The translations under genes and the position numbers were made by a program. The notes beneath the pieces are model-generated. The model was not told the DNA's origin and made no database searches. It saw only the letters and a program-made list of their open reading frames with translations. A stretch of DNA of 61,437 bases, the filler included, from Sphacelaria rigidula (Eukaryota), in assembly GCA_964200075.2 (NCBI GenBank). It is 10 parts of 10 records of this genome, joined end to end, with 100 filler letters (N's around TTAATTAATTAA, not from the genome) between each part and the next. Parts side by side here need not be neighbours in the genome. Positions count along the whole stretch, not along the records: positions 55,385 to 61,437 come from CAXNAA020022547.1; 9 more parts are not named here. One strand, written 5' to 3'. How positions within the stretch are numbered: the stretch's first letter is position 1; every line of letters starts with the position of its first letter. Shown piece after piece: positions 51,273 through 60,400 of this stretch.

Positions 51273-53876
51273 TTAGCCCACCCTGGATCGTTCAAGTGCA
51301 GTCACTTTTCAGAAGGGACGAACTTGGATCGAGCCACACCTCTCCCACACCACAGAAAATTGAGACTCCATGTGAAGATCGAGTCCGCTTTGGTACGGAG
51401 AACGGGAAGGGGCGATCAACACAAAAAAACAAGAAACACAAGCACAAGCATAAAGCAAAGAGAAAAAAAACCGAACCGATACAATGGTTCGGTGTCCTCA
51501 TGTTCCGTGAGTTCTTCAGACGGGGTCATGGGAAATAAAAATATATTGAAAAAAAAATAAGACCCAAATCAACAATGAAACCATATCCATAAAAGGCGGT
51601 GTCTCCAGAATGTCGTAAGCATTTCCATGAAAGACACAGGAAATCAGAGACCAATCATTGGAACGATTATCCTACCCTGCCATAACTATATCATGAATAA
51701 ATAGTTCGCTCTTTTCCGAATGTCCGATTTGTTTTTGGTCATTGGTAGGAAAACAAGCAAGCCCGCCAAGGCATTATATCACTTCGATAACCAAGTTCAT
51801 GCTAATCACTCGTGCCAGTCAATCAGCAAAAGCAAACAACGTAGAGCCGAGTTCGTCGCGGAAATGGTAGTTTCCCGCGAAAACCATACGTTGATAAAAA
51901 GAAACCTAAATAGGATGATACGGACAAATCAACCCGTTTGACGTGAGTTAATTGTCGGTACATGTTTGGGAGAACAACGACCTGCTTGGGACGTTGGACG
52001 TCTGGTTGATCATCCAGTCGTACAGCATTTTTTTTTCTCACTCGACGATACGAAAACATTTGACCGGTTTGTGAGGTCAGGTGTCTGTACACGTCAAAAG
52101 AAATGTGGTGGAGAGTACACGACCTTCGGGCCTACTTCGTAGTCCGGAGGCGGATCACCTAACACATTTCTTAACCACGACAAATACACTGGACAGAGAG
52201 GACCGACGCAGCCCGCTCCTCACAGTATTTGCCCGTTCGGACTAAAACGAGACTGGCCGAACACAAACTGGAGTAAAACCCACAGTCAGTCGTACCGTCA
52301 CGTTACTTCGTCCAATAATCCCTGATGAAAACAAAACACCACCGACCAATTTCAGGGGCGGGTGATTGTACGCAAAAACTGGCAAAAGTGACAGAAAAAA
52401 TAGCGAGTGGCGGACTCTGAGCCTGTAGGCTGTACCAAAGGTCGAATATCGACATGGCGGAACGGACAGTTCCACAAGAGCGATCTACCTCATCATGATA
52501 CGAGATGGTCCTGTATGAGGAGACGTTTGCAACCGATCTTACCGCGACTTCAATTACAATTCTTCAACACCGCTATGTACGACGCGGCCAGTGGTAGCCT
52601 CGTTGTAAGTTATCAATCACCAAAGTATAGATCATCGCGTCGCATTACCCGTGACCCTCTCATGAAAGAGGTCGGTCACATGCGGCAGGACTCGCAAAAA
52701 AAAGTAGGCCAAGTGTTCTAGACTCGAGGGTCAGGAACATCGGAACACTCGTGGCGAAATTCCCGACATAGACGCAGAAACCGAAACAAAAAACAAAACA
52801 AAACAAGGGGCACGCTGGGCAACAGCGAAAACGAAAATGCGCAACACAAGGCAGAAAAACAACACGTGGCAACCGTCCTTGTGAACGGGAGCGGTCATCG
52901 TGTGTGTACGAAGCAAGCAGGGTCAAAAGTTCCAGCCAAGAAGGTCAAAACATGTCAGGCAAACCCATGTTAATATAAAACTCAACGTAGGCGCACACAA
53001 AAATGGAACACGTCACGACCGATCCCGAAGTGAGAGGGGGTATGTGTGTACGGAGCGGTTGGGCAAGAGCGCAATTTTACCACACGGGGAGGTCGGGTAT
53101 GTGCAGCGCTTGTTCCTAAAAATCTCAACCGAAAAGACAAAAACAAAAAATAAGGAAATACCGACAGCATATGACACAAACAGGCACGTCATGACCGGTC
53201 CCGAAGAGGGAGGCGGCATTCGCGTGGGGAGCGATTGAACAAGAGCGCACGTATTCCAGACGTAGGCGTCACGTATGGCTAGCGCTTGCTCCGTTAAGTC
53301 TTCCATAAAGAAAATGCAAATTTACAAATGAAGACCAGGTAATAAGAAGGCAAAACAAGGTTTACGTACAACGAAAAGAAAATGAAGACATAAAGAACTC
53401 GTGGCAACTGTTCCGGTGGACGAAATGGTTGTGGATGTACGGCGCGGAGGACGGAGGTTCAAGGTTCCAGACTCGGGGTCAGGAATAGAACGTTCGTCAC
53501 TTGTACTTAGCCAGATGAACCCAGAAGTACCCAAGAAAAGTACCCCTTGAACACAAACAATCGAGCACAAAGCACGAGGCTAAAAGAAAAGAAGACAAAA
53601 GCAAAACAAAAAAAACACAACAACAAGTCAAGACAATTGGCTCAAAGGCAAAGAAAATCAAACCAAAAAACCAGGGTCCAACGCAACAAAGAACAAAATA
53701 CAACACAAAAAACAAATACAAAAAAACGAAAGATGATATACCAATTACGAAACACTACAATCAGGAGGGGAAGATGGGGGAACACATCGTTTTCCAACGA
53801 CGCTACAGTGCAAGACAAGCGACTCGAACGCGGTACACTACCCAAGGTGAATGGGGAAGCAGACTCGGATACGGCA

Positions 53877-55284
53877 TCATGAGTCATCTGCATCCCAAGC
53901 GGTGTCCGTGTTCCGTAGAACGGCTGTTTCGACTTCGCCTTGGGCGTGTCGTTGGAGGCACCAGGATCCCCTCCGAGCGGTCGGCTCCTCGGTGTAATAC
54001 CCATCATCCAAGCGAATCCGGAGGGGGCTCGGGTCATCGAGGAAACGGATAAAGTAGGAGTGGTCCGACGCGGGATCGATCAAATGAATGTTTCCCAACC
54101 ACCACAGTGAATTCAAGGCATTATACCAAAAATACGTCCCTTTCGGCAATCGTTTTCCCTGAATACACTGCAGGTATTGTGAACGCGAAACAAGACTATA
54201 GCCTGTCACAACATACCGCGCTGAATGTTCACGTGCCAGTTCCCGAGCGGCAGCTCCCTTGCGCATCGACCGATATCTCTTATTCAACGGGCGGTGTTGG
54301 ACGGTATCTCCTACACAGTACAGCAATATTTCCCGACGAAAATGACGCAAATCAACTTCACGCTCCCATGTAACAGGCATGATACCCTTCCAATGTGTTT
54401 GATACATTACCGCTATCTTACCTCCACGACCGCGAACCAGTTGATGGCCCGAAATCCTATTTACCTCAACGCGTTCCAGGGGTGCGTCCGCATCCTCGAC
54501 CGTCATCTGATGCGGCGGAGGTTCGATCGAATACTTGGTCAACACATACTGGCTAAGCCCTACCGGCGGTTGTTTGGGCATGTCAGAGGAGTCATGACGG
54601 GGGATACACGGTTTGCCTCGTAGCATCGAGACGCGACTTTTCGGTTTCAAACCAGGTTCATCCGTGGGAAAATCTAAATACAAAAATTTCGCTCCCACCG
54701 GACTCTTGTCGGGTGCGGTAGCGCTTGGATCAACAGCTGAAACTTCCCAAGGACCGGTCCAATTCAAGGATAGTTTCGCCTTCAACACCTTGTCCAAAGA
54801 TGATGATTTCGAGCTAGCCCCTTGATTAATGGTCTTCACATCGTTGTATACCCATGCCCATTGGCCTACCTTCCACACCGGGCAGCTACGCACCACATCA
54901 TTCAACATCGAGTTTGCCCTGGCCACCGTGGCCAAATTGATTTGGATCTGTTCTCGTACCACTTCATATGCAAGACGAAGACGATTGCTAACCGACAAAT
55001 GATACTCTGCAACATCACGATGCAGACTCTGATGTCCAAATGTATTTTTGCGTTCGAATGCCGTTGAAGGTAACCTAGGCATGCGTCCAATATGAATTCC
55101 ATTCGGCGACAATCCCGTAACGGCATTGACTGAATTGTTGTAGTTCATCTGGACAAGGGGGAGGTGCAGATCCCAGTCCATCTGTCTCTCATTCGCTACA
55201 GCAGCAAGCATCTGTGCCATCGTATGGTTCACTCGTTCCGTTCCACCATTGGTGGAAGGGTGATATGAACAAGGAAGAATGTGA
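53877..55284 (-). mobile_element. Ty3/gypsy integrase C-terminal half with GPY/F-like motif, chromodomain-like module and an additional C-terminal domain
   Basis: YHPSTNGGTERVNHTMAQML, WDLHLP...YNNSVNAVTGLSP, KLSLNWTGPWEV, then VNRISGHQLVRG...MYQTHWKG...TWEREVDL (chromodomain-like). The ORF is open for more than 450 aa. Confidence 0.9.
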
Positions 55285-55803
55285 NNNNNNNNNNNNNNNN
55301 NNNNNNNNNNNNNNNNNNNNNNNNNNNNTTAATTAATTAANNNNNNNNNNNNNNNNNNNNNNNNNNNNNNNNNNNNNNNNNNNNCAATGGTCTTATGACT
55401 ATGGCAAGCATGATCATGAGTACACCCCCCCCCCAGGAAACCGCGTTCGCCCTCCTACTACTAGGATCGCATGCATCACTGACGCTTGTTTGGTATGCTC
55501 TCTCCGTTGAATTCAACGCAGGAACTTACCTCTCGGGTCTCATTAGTGTTCCCATGGCCTTCGTTTGCCATGACCATCCAATTATGCTAGAACATGTGGG
55601 GGGCACTTGAGCGGATATTTGGTGGATGCTGGGAAAGCGTTCGACCTTTGGTGTCTGACAGGGTGAATGGAGGATGTTGATCGGCAGTGTGATTCCTCGA
55701 CGTTGACCTAAATATGACGATATGGTGACGGTCGCTTGTGCTGCCCAGGTCGCAAGTGTCATTCTGCGATCGTCTGTTGCTTCTCATCCGGTTGCCCGCG
55801 CAG

Positions 55804-55971
55804 GGAGGTACCGAGGAGGCAGATGTTTTTGAAGCAGCCGTAACGGGACCAGATGGGTCGGTCATTTTCGCTGGCTGGACCTCGGGTGACTGGAATAGAA
55901 CAAACATCGGTGCCGCAGACTTCGCGGCTGCGAAGTTTGACACAGAAGGGAATCTTTTGTGGAAATGGCAG
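55804..55971 (+). CDS. Beta-propeller-repeat protein, repeat exon (56 aa)
   Basis: CAG acceptor, GTGGG donor, 168 nt, phase 0-0. Encodes GGTEEADVFEAAVTGPDGSVIFAGWTSGDWNRTNIGAADFAAAKFDTEGNLLWKWQ. Confidence 0.88.
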
Positions 55972-56481
55972 GTGGGGTGAGACGGCACGTGTCTCTTTCG
56001 TGGGGTAATTTCAGCAAACTTCAGTCTTTTTACCGTAGAGCAGGGGAACGTGCGATCATGACATGCTCGTGGCAGCGTCAATATCCAGTGCAGCGGGAAG
56101 CGATGTCTTGTTCGCTTGTCTCCTTGTTTCCTAGTCCAGTTTGTCGTGCTCGGTCGGCTAGCCCGCCGGAACTGTGGGCTGACGAAGTGAACCGCACAGT
56201 TTTAATAATGCAGTGCTACATGTGAAGAAAGGGCGCCGACGCCAGAGTGTTGCTATCAGACCTGGCGTCCCACTAGCACTAATTGCTCCCGTTCACGGGC
56301 GGCTGGCCGCTGAGAAAGTTGTGTCATCATCAATACCTTCGAGAAGAGGTCGCTGATGGCGCACTGCGCAGGTTGGGTTTACTCTGAACCGTCCATCCTA
56401 TTGAAGGCACCTCAAAGGTGTTGTAGATGATTAATCGTACAACGCGGGTCCATCGCGTGTCCCTTTTTGTGCATCCATCAG

Positions 56482-56649
56482 GACGGGACAGCAGCGCAGG
56501 ATTACTTGTACGCAGCTTCAGCGCTAGAAAATGGCTCTGTACTGCTAGTCGGGAGCACGGGGGGTAAATGGGACGGTCTTAACGCTGGCGGTAGCGACTT
56601 TGCCGCGGTGACTCTGGATGCTGACGGCACTGAACTCTGGCGTTGGCAG
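56482..56649 (+). CDS. Beta-propeller-repeat protein, repeat exon (56 aa)
   Basis: CAG acceptor, GTGGG donor, 168 nt, phase 0-0. Encodes DGTAAQDYLYAASALENGSVLLVGSTGGKWDGLNAGGSDFAAVTLDADGTELWRWQ. Confidence 0.88.
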
Positions 56650-57210
56650 GTGGGCTACCGGTGCTCACCACAACAGTCAGGACCCCCTCATCTTTCACGA
56701 AAATGCGTTGCTGCCCACACGGCTTCCCTGTCCTGCGACACGTGTAAGCGCGTAATGTTTCTGGGGAATCTCACATCCTCTCGCAGCATGGTGAAGGATA
56801 CGTTGGGTAGAAGCACGAAGATCTAAAGTGGGGCATATCCTAGTGACAGGATTGCTGAAACACACCTGCTTGTACTGCACCGTGCAAGGCTCATGTGGAG
56901 GAAGGTCGTATGGTAGTTTATTTTGTTCCACCTCTTCCCTTGACGTGCGCTGGATTGTTTGTGTGCAGCAGCCTAGGGCAGTTAGGGCTAGTTGTTTTTC
57001 GGGGCCGCACCACGGGGGTTATGTTCTCTCCTAGGCCATGGCAGACAGGCGTGGGGTTCACACCGCAGGCAACGGCCGGTGCAGATACTAATAGCTGCGG
57101 TAGGAAACGAGGTTGCTTCGGGTGTACATCAACGTATCAACGACGCTGTGACTCGTTCACCACAAAATATGATATTTCCCGTTTCAAACACCTTGCCCGC
57201 CTATTCGCAG

Positions 57211-57495
57211 AACGGCTCGGGGAACGCCGACGTGCTCAACGCAGCCACAGCGGGATCCGACGGAGCAATGATCTTGGCAGGATCTACACTCGGACTCTGG
57301 GATGGTGCAAGCGCGGGAGGCGTTGCTTCCGATTTTGCTGCTGTCATGCTAAACGTTAGCGACATTGCCACACCCGCACCCTCGCCAATTCCGGTCGACA
57401 CAACGTCGTCTGCTGGAAGGACGAGCCCAGCACTGCTCATTTGGGGAGTTTCCTCAGTACTAGTAGCTCTTCTCTTCTCTACGGGAAAACACTAA
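57211..57495 (+). CDS. Beta-propeller-repeat protein, last repeat + Pro/Ser/Thr stalk + transmembrane segment
   Basis: CAG acceptor in phase 0. Encodes NGSGNADVLNAATAGSDGAMILAGSTLGLWDGASAGGVASDFAAVML, then TPAPSPIPVDTTSS and LLIWGVSSVLVALLF, with a stop at 57493-57495 (3' end uncertain). Confidence 0.8.
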   Translation, partial: NGSGNADVLNAATAGSDGAMILAGSTLGLWDGASAGGVASDFAAVMLNVSDIATPAPSPIPVDTTSSAGRTSPALLIWGVSSVLVALLFSTGKH

Positions 57496-60400
57496 ATAGA
57501 ATACTTTCCTTCAGAAGTCGCAAGTTGCCTCCTCAGGTTGCTTTATTGACTGTTCGTGTGGATAGCATATGGTATGGTTGTCACATAGCTTTTACGGTCC
57601 CGGCGTGATCCACCCGCGACGTTCAGCGGCGCTCACTTTATGGTCTTGTGTTCTGCCATCTCACACCCCACTAGCCGCCAGATTTTCTTTCAGTTCCTTT
57701 CAAGACTGCTACCACGAGCAGGCTTTTCTTTACTCGTCGTGTTGGAACACCAACGATTGGGTGCTAGAAGCGACGTTCGCAAACTCACGTGCGCGCTTCC
57801 AGCAATTCACCCTTTTGGGAGGACGGCCGGTGCTTCATGGTTCGCAGCCTGCCTATTATTGAGTTTCGGGTTAGTATTATTATCATCTTGACCACGATCA
57901 AAGACTGCCTGTAACAAGTCGGCAGACGCGGCGGGGTGTAGCATACGCCAATGTAACGTACATGGATATGGGGGGGTGATGAGATCACGCGTAGTTTCAC
58001 AGCTTGGACATGTGACCCATAGTTGCAACAGCCCTATACTTTTTTTCTGTTGCAGCTGTTGACCACATAACGTCCAGGGTGAGGGTAATTTACACGGCCT
58101 GATTTTACGCTACTTGTGCTCGATTAAAGCAAAATCAAGAGGAGATCTGACCAGGGGGTCAACGGCAGAAGAATGTAAGCAGGCCTGGTGGACAAAATGC
58201 ACAGAAATGTCGAGGGAAAGAAACGTTGGTTCTTTGTTCCCCGGGTTGTAAAGATGATTTTTTTCGCGCCTAAGTTTGTTGAGGGTACGGAGGCGGGGTT
58301 GTATTTTTGGCGTCCCCGAGTTCGTTTGCTCCACCACCACCTCATGGTGGGGAACGAGTAAGGCGATTGATACCACTAGTGCAGGTGATGACGTCTCACC
58401 CGCAAGTGGAATATAGGTGGAACCGCTTCATGGTGTGCTACCCTGCCTGTCTTCTGATGTTCTTGAGTGAAGTGTGGCAGTTCCCAACACTTTCTCCAGT
58501 AGATTTGTATCGGGCGAACGGCTCATCGGACATTTTCGGTCATGTTTGAGCGCAGTGAAGCATCGAGGTCGAGGAGGGTGGGTCGCATCTCGGCAACACC
58601 AGGTCGGGAAATGTTTGGTATGTGGTGGTTTACTTCCTGTTCGTCTGCTTACTTATTACCTGATTTGTCTGCCGCAAGAAGATATGACTGTTTGATCGAG
58701 TCGGAACATGCACACAATGAACGGGTTCGGGTATCCCGCTCACCATGTATTGTTACGGGATTCGCCTTTCGGGGGATGACACTCATTTGTTCGATCACGG
58801 GTCCTTGGAAAACTTATTGTGTGCGTGTGTTATTCGGGTAGCAGTGCAGTTACTGACCAATGCTGTTCTATCGTGTAATCTACGGTCCTGACTGTATTGC
58901 TGGTCCTAGCTATCGTGTGAAGAACTTCAGCTGGGGCCGCGTTGAAACGTTGTGTTGAAGCTTTGTTGCAGTAGCGATGTTGTTGGGTGTTTTTGTTGTC
59001 ATATACGCAGTGGTGCAATCTCCTGGAAGAGGGAAAAGGGCTGTATAATGTCGCTGGTCACTGTGTAACACGGCGTGGAGCTGCTCAATGTACATGACCT
59101 ACTGTTGTTATTGTATTGCCACCCGTATCGACGATATCGCTGTACATCACAACGATGTCTTCGAAGATTGAGAGTGAAAAGCGGTCACTTAGTGAATGAA
59201 TAGTTTCAGTTCCGAAATGCCCCTCCACGAGGCCCGATATTCTTTCTGTACTAGCTTGCCATTGAGGCCCTTGATATCCCCTAGTAGGGTGTCGACGTGT
59301 AGCTGTAGCACGCGGCAGTGATGGAGGCAAAAAAAAAGCACACACGGAATGAAAAATTGGCAAAGATCAAGCGAATAATCAAAGCCACTTTCATTCTGTG
59401 CTCTACTCTCAATCTCACGCAAATGCCATCAGCTGCCTTCTTCGCCACGATACTAGATTCGCCGAAAAGCACGTCTACGGTACCTCCAAGCCTAGATCGA
59501 ACTCGTCGTTACGTTGATGCTGACTTCGCTCGTCGTGCTCAGCACTCCGCGGGCGAAAGCATCGCTGGCCGTGGTAATACATCCGTGTGGTTTCATCGAC
59601 GGGTCGGACGAGTAATCGCTGGTTCGGATAACCAAACCTACGAATTCTCAGACCTGATTGCTCGAAAGAGGAGGAATTCGACAGTGGGTCTGAAACGTCT
59701 GTACGCAAATTCTTGCTCTGTCCCACGTGCCCGGGTGCGCAAACCTGGTGTGCTACGCAGAAAATCAACGCCCAACGATTGATTTGTGCGGATTTGTGCA
59801 GGACCGATCAATTACGCTAGAAGCGAATGGTTTTTAGACGAATCGTTAAATTCGTCCGACCCATGCTTTGTTGCTTTCACTTGGTGTCGATCAACTTACT
59901 CGAACGCATTCCTCATCTGGATGAAACTGCGGGCGTTAGTATCGTACTTCCTCTGTCCCATAAGTCTGCGCAGACTGCTGCCGAGATAGCCCGCCCCCCC
60001 CGAACCGGCCAAAAAAGTGCACGGAGGCGATGATCATAAATGCCGTTAGAGCTGGTTTCGTGCTGCACGATACGACTCATTCGGGCGTTAACGCTGATTT
60101 CGGACTGCTACGCGCCCCTCATACGGGCAAAATTGGTGCAAACGAGCCTAATAGCGGGATCGCAGCCGGCTTGTCGGACGGTCTCCGGTGCACTTTTTGT
60201 GGGGAGGCCATCTCGGCATTAGTCCGCAGTTATGTTTATACGAACCCTTAACGGTGTCTGATTCGATTTTCGATTTTTTTATTGCATTCGTTGGCGTTTT
60301 TTGGGCTGAAAACAACACTCCTTCTACGACGCGGGTGCTCAACGCGTGCAGTCCCGCGGTCGAGAAAAAGTAGGTCGGCCAAAAAGCGGCAATTTTTCGC

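What the first reader, a model, noticed from the sequence alone, without database searches (positions are those of the whole stretch)
55804..57495. Exon-per-blade beta-propeller cell-surface protein (symmetric 168-nt phase-0 exons)
Seen: two exons of exactly 168 nt each encode one 56-aa repeat (G-T-x3-D...DGSV..(A/V)G.T.G.W...N.G..DFAA..LD..G..LW.WQ). Both end at identical positions (TGGCAG|GTGGG). A third exon carries a final repeat, a Pro/Ser/Thr stalk and a transmembrane helix. Knowledge: this pattern resembles SBBP-type (seven-bladed beta-propeller) repeats of bacterial surface proteins, and one-repeat-per-exon organisation is known for brown algal LRR and TPR candidate immune genes. Inference: this may be a third class of exon-modular receptor or adhesin, possibly of bacterial origin, whose blades could be duplicated, skipped or shuffled without frameshift to diversify ligand recognition.
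Basis: partly seen in the sequence, partly recalled or inferred. Interest (0 to 1): 0.72.

Follow-up and report, generated by a model that had tools for sequence, protein, structure and literature searches.

The report
One-blade-per-exon brown algal propeller protein
This is the back half of an expressed brown-algal gene for a membrane-anchored, seven-bladed propeller protein in which each blade sits on its own exon; it belongs to a family that includes receptor kinases, but the blades show no sign of the ongoing shuffling seen in the alga's candidate immune genes.

Summary
Two 168-nt phase-0 exons (55804-55971, 56482-56649) and a last exon from 57211 are spliced exactly as read in three RNA-like runs and not in a DNA-like run. 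They encode blades 5-7 (numbering inferred) of a seven-bladed beta-propeller, a short stalk and a hydrophobic tail, with no kinase. The 5' half lies off this contig. The genome holds at least 12 such genes; 40 of 40 spliced blade exons are multiples of 3. A model of a full-length relative puts the intron exactly at the blade boundary. The same propeller is the ectodomain of brown-algal receptor kinases; its closest solved structure is cyanobacterial CylK, which has Ca2+ at each blade junction. Ongoing shuffling is not supported: blade number never exceeds seven, no inverted exons were found, blades within a gene are at most 63% identical, and close paralogues keep blade order. The layout is best read as ancient amplification of one blade exon, now frozen. 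Unexpected: most relatives lack a signal peptide, the kinase relatives have an MLKL-like segment, and intronless relatives lie on phaeovirus-like contigs.

The parts
55285..55384 (.). N spacer between unrelated contigs; the retrotransposon-like ORF upstream is not a neighbour of this gene
55385..55803 (+). 3' part of the intron before blade 5; contig starts in a repeat; ends in a pyrimidine-rich tract and CAG
   Evidence: transcript contigs enter at this acceptor
55804..55971 (+). 168-nt phase-0 exon, one whole blade (strands a-d); blade 5 by inference
55972..56481 (+). 510-nt GT..AG intron at the blade boundary
56482..56649 (+). 168-nt phase-0 exon, one whole blade; blade 6 by inference (nearest blades are blade 6 of C18756 and C1897)
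56650..57210 (+). 561-nt GT..AG intron at the blade boundary
57211..57363 (+). Blade 7, strands a-c only; its fourth strand is supplied by the N-terminus in full-length relatives
57364..57429 (+). Short Pro/Ser/Thr-rich stalk (about 22 aa), ending in small residues that fit a GPI attachment region
   Evidence: GPI pattern recalled
57430..57486 (+). 19-aa hydrophobic C-terminal anchor (mean hydropathy 1.98), followed by KH and the stop
57493..57495 (+). Stop codon; no kinase or cytoplasmic domain follows
   Evidence: exon runs on unspliced
57496..59228 (+). 3' untranslated region, about 1.7 kb
   Evidence: contigs of X5, X6 end at 59228, X7 at 59186

Best explanation
The locus is the 3' half of an expressed gene for a kinase-less, membrane-anchored member of a brown-algal family of seven-bladed, CylK-type beta-propeller proteins. 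Shown: splicing, one blade per exon, the stop, family size, fold of a relative, homology to CylK and to receptor-kinase ectodomains. Inferred mechanism: the acidic G-T-x3-D/E loop that opens each exon binds Ca2+ between blades, as the matching loop does in CylK, and stiffens the ring; the variable top-face loops bind a protein or wall-glycan ligand; the stalk and tail hold the propeller on the outer face of the membrane, so it works as an adhesin or as a co-receptor/decoy beside the propeller receptor kinases. Inferred history: one blade flanked by phase-0 introns was amplified in tandem to rebuild the propeller; ring closure (seven blades, N-terminal strand completing blade 7) then fixed number and order, and the family diversified by whole-gene duplication, loop substitution, some intron loss and swapping of C-terminal modules, not by ongoing blade shuffling.
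For: Splicing and stop. Exon = blade: model of P0046 has 28 strands (7x4), mean pLDDT 84, W.WQ at the end of strand d. CylK: Foldseek E 3e-29, rmsd 1.6-1.9 for the top four hits; exon profile hits it at E 3e-38 with seven stretches, the last truncated like ours; Ca2+ at each blade junction (PMC8916777). Loop conserved: G 40/40, T/S 38/40, D/E 39/40. Same repeat in kinases, XK-linked, CBM6-fused and stalk-only proteins. Fixed number: none of 58 algal-type proteins has more than 7 blades. No live shuffling: 0 of 25 contigs with hits on both strands, 1 of 85 hits with a stop, within-contig identity at most 63% (mean 51.5% vs 51.3% between contigs), 28 of the 30 closest pairs in the same register, the other 2 on single-exon contigs. 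Cross-species order: C22720 vs P0046 ranks 1 of 5040 placements, C26789 vs P0053 and C10672 vs P0047 1 of 210. Same exon layout elsewhere: Ectocarpus family 6336 genes with exon lengths nearly all multiples of 3 (PMC3341825 supplement); single-blade frames bounded by Q|xGT and WQ|V, one 95% identical to a blade of an Undaria kinase. One-blade origin: algal blades share W before the final Q (36/40), absent from the eight commonest residues of CylK-type blades, and the two sets barely mix on a tree. Outward face: strong basic charge after the helix in the kinase relatives; 4 N-glycosylation sequons in the 3 blades here. dN/dS 0.19 against C18756 on two exons.
Against: The 5' half was not linked, so seven blades and the N-terminus of this very protein are inferred. 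The structure is of a relative. Ca2+ ligands were not mapped residue by residue. No ligand, location or phenotype is known. 37 of 40 relatives with a visible start lack a signal peptide, which makes the outward orientation of a tail-anchored member uncertain. 48 of 132 blades have their best match at another position, the collinear placement ranked first in only 6 of 20 contigs, and this gene has no clear cross-species counterpart. The blade tree has only 3 of 155 strongly supported branches. dS is near saturation in the dN/dS figure.
Confidence: 0.62

Rival explanations
1. Live exon-shuffling or exon-skipping receptor, a third class beside LRR-ROCO and NB-ARC-TPR.
For: All 40 spliced blade exons are symmetric phase 0, so swaps would keep the frame. 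Frameshifted or stop-bearing blades in C2922 and C6508 and dN/dS near 1 in that group suggest birth and death. In C1640, C2922 and C6508 blades 1 and 3 match P0046 blades 3 and 1 best, at low scores.
Against: The hallmarks named in PMC3341825 (variable repeat number, inverted intronic exons, lost order between recent paralogues) are absent. [quoted passage not shown] One unbranched transcript contig per run, no skipping joint among those listed.
Confidence: 0.1
2. Tail-anchored protein with a cytosolic propeller that scaffolds protein contacts on an organelle or the inner face of the plasma membrane.
For: Single C-terminal hydrophobic stretch followed by only KH; most relatives have no signal peptide; relatives P0053-P0055 with a similar tail have 0-1 sequons.
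Against: Acidic blades (23 D/E vs 6 K/R in P0074) with a putative Ca2+ loop, 4 sequons, a mucin-like stalk; kinase relatives must put the same propeller outside. This gene's own N-terminus is unseen.
Confidence: 0.15
3. PKN orthologue or PKN-like gamete recognition protein.
For: PKN has a seven-bladed propeller with long loops and an acidic outer face, a mucin region and one helix (bioRxiv 10.64898/2026.02.20.706836).
Against: PKN has a signal peptide and an acidic cytoplasmic tail; this protein has a 2-residue tail and a short stalk.
Confidence: 0.07
4. Same protein, other history: an intact seven-blade gene arrived by transfer and gained introns independently at the repeated CAG|G site of each blade.
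For: 34 of 40 exons end TGGCAG and 33 of 40 begin with G, a favoured insertion context (recalled). Intronless propellers exist in this genome (C4019, C4292, C5793) and on virus-like contigs.
Against: No intron was seen inside any of the 40 spliced blade exons; six gains at one repeat position and none elsewhere is hard to get by chance. Algal blades share one signature, and in 25 of 33 cases are closer to a sister blade than to any of 280 CylK-type blades.
Confidence: 0.25

Closest known systems
Brown-algal beta-propeller (QAD) receptor kinases (Denoeud et al., bioRxiv 10.1101/2024.02.19.579948; passages seen)
   Same: Same repeat forms the seven-blade ectodomain of kinases from Ascophyllum, Undaria, Pylaiella and Ectocarpus; followed by stalk and hydrophobic segment. 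Equating these with the paper's class is inferred from names (QAD; IPR011047); its Table S10 was not seen.
   Different: No kinase or cytoplasmic domain here. The passages seen do not mention exon layout, CylK kinship or kinase-less members.
CylK C-terminal propeller (PDB 7RON, 7FH6; PMC8916777, passages and section 5 read)
   Same: Seven blades of about 56 aa, same G-T-x3-D junction loop, long b-c loop, truncated last blade; 28% identity, rmsd under 2 A.
   Different: CylK is a cyanobacterial enzyme that needs an N-terminal RTX-like domain; full-length algal relatives mostly start at the propeller and carry stalks and membrane anchors.
LRR-ROCO and NB-ARC-TPR exon-shuffling genes of Ectocarpus (PMC3341825; passages and supplement table 2 rows seen)
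   Same: One repeat per phase-0 exon; multigene family with some broken members.
   Different: Closed ring with fixed number and order, no inverted or spare exons. It resembles the type II LRR kinases of that paper, which are modular but do not shuffle.
PKN gamete recognition protein (bioRxiv 10.64898/2026.02.20.706836; parts 1-5 of 6 read, supplements closed)
   Same: Seven-bladed propeller, mucin-like stalk, single hydrophobic segment, brown algae.
   Different: PKN has a signal peptide and an acidic tail; sequence relation untested.
SBBP (PF06739) and DUF5122 (PF17164) propeller repeats
   Same: Atlas neighbours at 0.96-0.97 carry SBBP; some homologues carry these labels.
   Different: The window's exons reach neither Pfam cut-off.

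Membership tests
Brown-algal beta-propeller receptor kinases | Beta-propeller ectodomain of this repeat type | tested here: met
   Exon profile hits kinase proteins at E 1e-107 to 1e-72; 7 blades each, 6 in the N-truncated P0070
Brown-algal beta-propeller receptor kinases | Cytoplasmic kinase domain after the helix | tested here: not met
   Stop at 57493-57495 followed by an unspliced 1.7-kb tail
Exon-shuffling LRR/TPR class | One repeat per symmetric phase-0 exon | tested here: met
   40 of 40 multiples of 3; 24 of 168 nt; two introns confirmed
Exon-shuffling LRR/TPR class | Variable repeat number | tested here: not met
   None of 58 algal-type proteins above 7; 19 of 19 chosen full-length references have 7
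Exon-shuffling LRR/TPR class | Inverted or spare repeat exons in introns | tested here: not met
   0 of 25 contigs (259,816 bases, some contigs in part) with hits on both strands; none with more than 7 hits
Exon-shuffling LRR/TPR class | Exon order scrambled between recent paralogues | tested here: not met
   28 of the 30 closest blade pairs in register, 2 not checkable
Exon-shuffling LRR/TPR class | Alternative splicing of repeat exons | tested here: inconclusive
   No skipping joint listed, but 28 joints not shown and contigs drop rare forms
Exon-shuffling LRR/TPR class | Gene birth and death, pseudogenes | tested here: inconclusive
   Broken blades in C2922 and C6508, dN/dS 0.89-1.0 in that group only; could be assembly errors
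SBBP PF06739 | Score above the Pfam gathering cut-off | tested here: not met
   No SBBP hit for the exons or P0074; paralogue P0004 17.1 bits vs 20.5
CylK-type propeller | Blade-for-blade sequence and fold match | tested here: met
CylK-type propeller | Ca2+ bound at each blade junction | not testable with these tools
   Loop motif conserved; ligands not mapped
CylK alkylating enzymes | N-terminal RTX-like domain that completes the active site | tested here: inconclusive
   5' half unseen; 880-920 nt upstream leaves room for four blades and little else; relatives lack it
PKN | Short acidic cytoplasmic tail | tested here: not met
   Tail is KH
PKN | Sequence orthology and female-gamete-specific expression | not testable with these tools
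   Sequence not in the parts read; preprint supplements closed
GPI-anchored proteins | Small-residue attachment site, spacer, hydrophobic C-terminus | tested here: inconclusive
   Pattern fits by eye (rules recalled) but ends in KH; no predictor available
GPI-anchored proteins | N-terminal signal peptide | not testable with these tools
   5' half not linked; absent in 37 of 40 relatives

The most novel reading that the evidence does not exclude
Brown algae rebuilt a prokaryote-type, Ca2+-clamped propeller from a single blade exon and use it as a general recognition module that crosses the membrane without a signal peptide (staying unfolded in the low-Ca2+ cytosol and folding in the lumen). Kinase-less anchored forms such as this one pair with receptor kinases that carry an MLKL-like domain in a defence or cell-death pathway, and phaeovirus-like viruses carry secreted copies as donors or decoys. 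Blade swaps between genes happened early and may still occur rarely.
Probability: 0.17. Interest if true: 0.82.

Novelty: new variant of a known kind. Interest (0 to 1): 0.52.

Why it matters
It gives a clean natural record of a propeller whose introns mark every blade boundary, which makes the idea that propellers arise by amplification of one blade (recalled) testable from gene structure. It ties the ectodomain of a recently described receptor-kinase class to a solved structure with Ca2+ sites, so ligand faces can be predicted, and shows the class has kinase-less anchored partners. It also sharpens what exon shuffling needs in brown algae: symmetric exons suffice in open solenoids (LRR, TPR) but apparently not in a closed ring. 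The missing signal peptides, the MLKL-like segment and the virus-like relatives are separate leads.

Tried and rejected
Pfam on single exons: only DUF5122 at E 0.045; P0074 none. Linking the 5' half by contig-end overlap failed; C105 (four blades, 693 nt, plus a leader exon) fits the 880-920 nt upstream but so could others. No run is on record as RNA; RNA status rests on the spliced joints. No relative found in genome contigs with P0074 (0 of 162 candidate stretches), viral contigs with P0183 or P0216 or the phage collection; these word-based searches are insensitive, so this is no evidence on origin. Most top hits of the wide HMMER search are unnamed, so 'prokaryote-type' for them rests on the CylK-like junction motif. 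Earlier findings: none. Literature searches for the exon layout and for MLKL in brown algae listed no paper describing it; I judged most from listings only, and subscription journals and preprint supplements are not covered. Rejected: link to the upstream retrotransposon-like ORF (other contig); downstream kinase exons (transcript unspliced after the stop); CylK-like enzyme (no room for the partner domain); recent tandem blade duplication (identity at most 63%). No complex was predicted.

Full report
Observation. The window is a string of about 6-kb contig starts joined by N spacers; the finding lies on G000:C22547, which begins at 55385. The exons are 55804-55971 and 56482-56649, 168 nt each, both ending TGGCAG|GTGGG, and a last exon starts at 57211. 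Contigs of three runs join the exons across GT..AG introns of 510 and 561 nt and leave the introns almost uncovered, while a fourth run covers the introns and has no joint. Two of the three may be one data set. The transcript contigs are 3.2-3.3 kb, hold 880-920 nt upstream of 55804 and continue unspliced to about 59228, so the stop at 57493 is real and no kinase follows. A database protein identical to the joined exons (P0074, partial) carries the label Sphacelaria rigidula.

Family in this genome. Single-exon searches gave 44 matches each; a profile built from them found 85 blade hits on 25 contigs, including 12 distinct last blades, so at least 12 genes. Of 40 exons with both splice signals at the model ends, all are multiples of 3, 24 are 168 nt, 9 are 171 nt and 34 end in TGGCAG. 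C1897 holds a full set: six whole blade exons and a truncated seventh. A few junctions have no intron (C10672, C22720, the C1640 group), and three paralogues carry the whole propeller in one frame (C4019, C4292, C5793).

What the repeat is. An AlphaFold2 model of the full-length relative P0046 has 28 strands, seven blades of four, mean pLDDT 84; the W.WQ motif ends strand d and the first strand of the protein completes blade 7. So each exon is exactly one blade and the truncated last repeat is expected. The best structural match is the C-terminal propeller of cyanobacterial CylK (E 3e-29), and the exon profile matches all seven CylK blades (E 3e-38). The CylK paper reports a Ca2+ site in the loop at each blade junction and long internal loops (PMC8916777). 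That loop is the G-T-x3-D/E at the start of each exon, conserved in 38-40 of 40 exons at the three positions; Ca2+ binding here is an inference. Pfam gives no SBBP hit above cut-off, though Atlas neighbours carry SBBP. The wider family is large: 41,392 cluster representatives at E up to 0.001; of 145 new top hits 94 have CylK-type junctions, 9 algal-type, 42 neither.

Relatives in brown algae. The repeat forms the ectodomain of receptor kinases and of kinase-less proteins with stalk and helix, with an XK-related domain, with CBM6, or with only a hydrophobic tail. Denoeud et al. describe a class of beta-propeller (QAD) receptor kinases; the link to these proteins is by name and by the IPR011047 label in Zambounis et al.'s table, which lists four family-6336 genes and one transmembrane kinase with exon lengths nearly all multiples of 3. 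Gene calls on other genomic contigs give single blades bounded by Q|xGT and WQ|V, one 95% identical to blade 4 of an Undaria kinase. The layout is therefore old and shared across orders.

Is it shuffled? I tested the hallmarks given in PMC3341825. Number: none of 58 algal-type proteins has more than seven blades. Inverted exons: 0 of 25 contigs. Recent duplication: within-contig identity at most 63%, mean equal to between-contig. Order: 28 of the 30 closest pairs lie in register between paralogues, and three contigs match proteins of other algae in perfect order. The window's blade 6 and 7 are nearest to blades 6 and 7 of C18756. Against a clean verdict: 48 of 132 blades have a best match at another position and 3 in their own gene, the collinear placement ranked first in only 6 of 20 contigs, and the C1640 group shows an apparent swap of blades 1 and 3 relative to P0046 at low scores. 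Deep comparisons are saturated, so old swaps are not excluded. No skipping joint was listed, but contigs hide rare forms. dN/dS is 0.19-0.57 in five comparisons and 0.89-1.0 in the group with broken blades. The most variable positions are blade residues 4-6, 8, 10, 27, 37 and 38, mostly in or beside the top-face loops.

Origin. Algal blades share a Trp before the final Gln (36 of 40), not among the common residues of CylK-type blades; 25 of 33 are closer to a sister blade than to any of 280 CylK-type blades; on a weak tree the two sets hardly mix. With an intron at every boundary and none inside a blade, amplification of one blade exon is the simplest history; repeated intron gain at CAG|G is the rival. 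Intronless, signal-peptide-bearing propellers with algal-type junctions lie on gene-dense, 33-41% GC metagenome contigs with a hybrid histidine kinase, Thg1 and an EsV-1-7 protein, which looks like a phaeovirus relative (inferred). Direction of transfer is unknown. An ultimate prokaryotic source is likely, not shown.

Topology and mechanism. 37 of 40 relatives with a visible start have Met within 15 residues of the first strand and no signal peptide (chance about 0.19 each; rows are not independent). Kinase relatives have a strong basic cluster after the helix, so their propeller should face out (rule recalled). For this protein the tail fits a GPI signal or a tail anchor. Acidity, four sequons and the stalk favour the outer face. 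I put about 0.62 on an outward, Ca2+-stabilised adhesin or co-receptor, 0.15 on a cytosolic scaffold, 0.10 on a live shuffling receptor and 0.07 on a PKN-like gamete factor; PKN shows that such an architecture can mediate recognition but differs in signal peptide and tail, and its sequence was not seen.

Verdict. A real and precise exon-per-blade gene of a partly known family. The family's kinase members are in print; the exon layout, CylK kinship, kinase-less anchored members and missing signal peptides were not found in my searches. New variant of a known kind, interest 0.52.

Noticed in passing
P0005-P0028, P0047-P0071, P0186, P0197; G000:C105 leader exon (L033): 37 of 40 algal-type members with a visible start begin 5-15 residues before the first strand, with no signal peptide, although the kinase members must place the propeller outside. 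Unexplained.
   Followed up: partly
P0050 residues 555-715; similar segment after the helix in L039 (C4694) and L056 (C1602): The segment between helix and kinase resembles the MLKL N-terminal domain (Atlas 0.93, 196 of 256 features, PF22215 on 36% of that cluster), but Pfam gave no such hit on P0050. A literature search listed nothing on it.
   Followed up: partly
L070:456-2252, L068:1774-3384, L069:522-1583: Virus-like metagenome contigs (hybrid histidine kinase, Thg1, GNAT, EsV-1-7 protein) encode intronless secreted propellers with algal-type junctions.
   Followed up: partly
L043:4171-5877 (-), L044:592-2262 (+), L052: Three paralogues carry propeller, stalk and helix in one open frame; their subfamily is widespread in brown algae. 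Possibly retrocopies or the ancestral state.
   Followed up: partly
L045:6159-6314 and 11921-12037 of C2922; L042 (C6508 first blade): Small deletions shift the frame near the end of a blade in C2922 and C6508, and C2922 has a stop in its last blade; dN/dS near 1 in this four-gene group.
   Followed up: partly
L031:6660-6820 (C1897): The last blade exon reaches a stop right after the blade, with no stalk in that frame: a soluble form or a further splice.
   Followed up: no
window 53877-55284 (-): Open frame of about 467 aa that reads like the integrase end of a Ty3/Gypsy element (recalled); no Pfam hit; on another contig than the finding.
   Followed up: no
window 52960-53320: Two copies of a 117-nt repeat, 72% alike, beside the retrotransposon-like frame.
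   Followed up: no
window 55405-55781: Low-depth contigs of the RNA-like runs cover the intron upstream of blade 5: unspliced RNA or a minor form.
   Followed up: no
P0058, P0047/P0048: The propeller is fused to a CBM6 carbohydrate-binding module in one protein and to an XK-related multi-pass domain in others.
   Followed up: no
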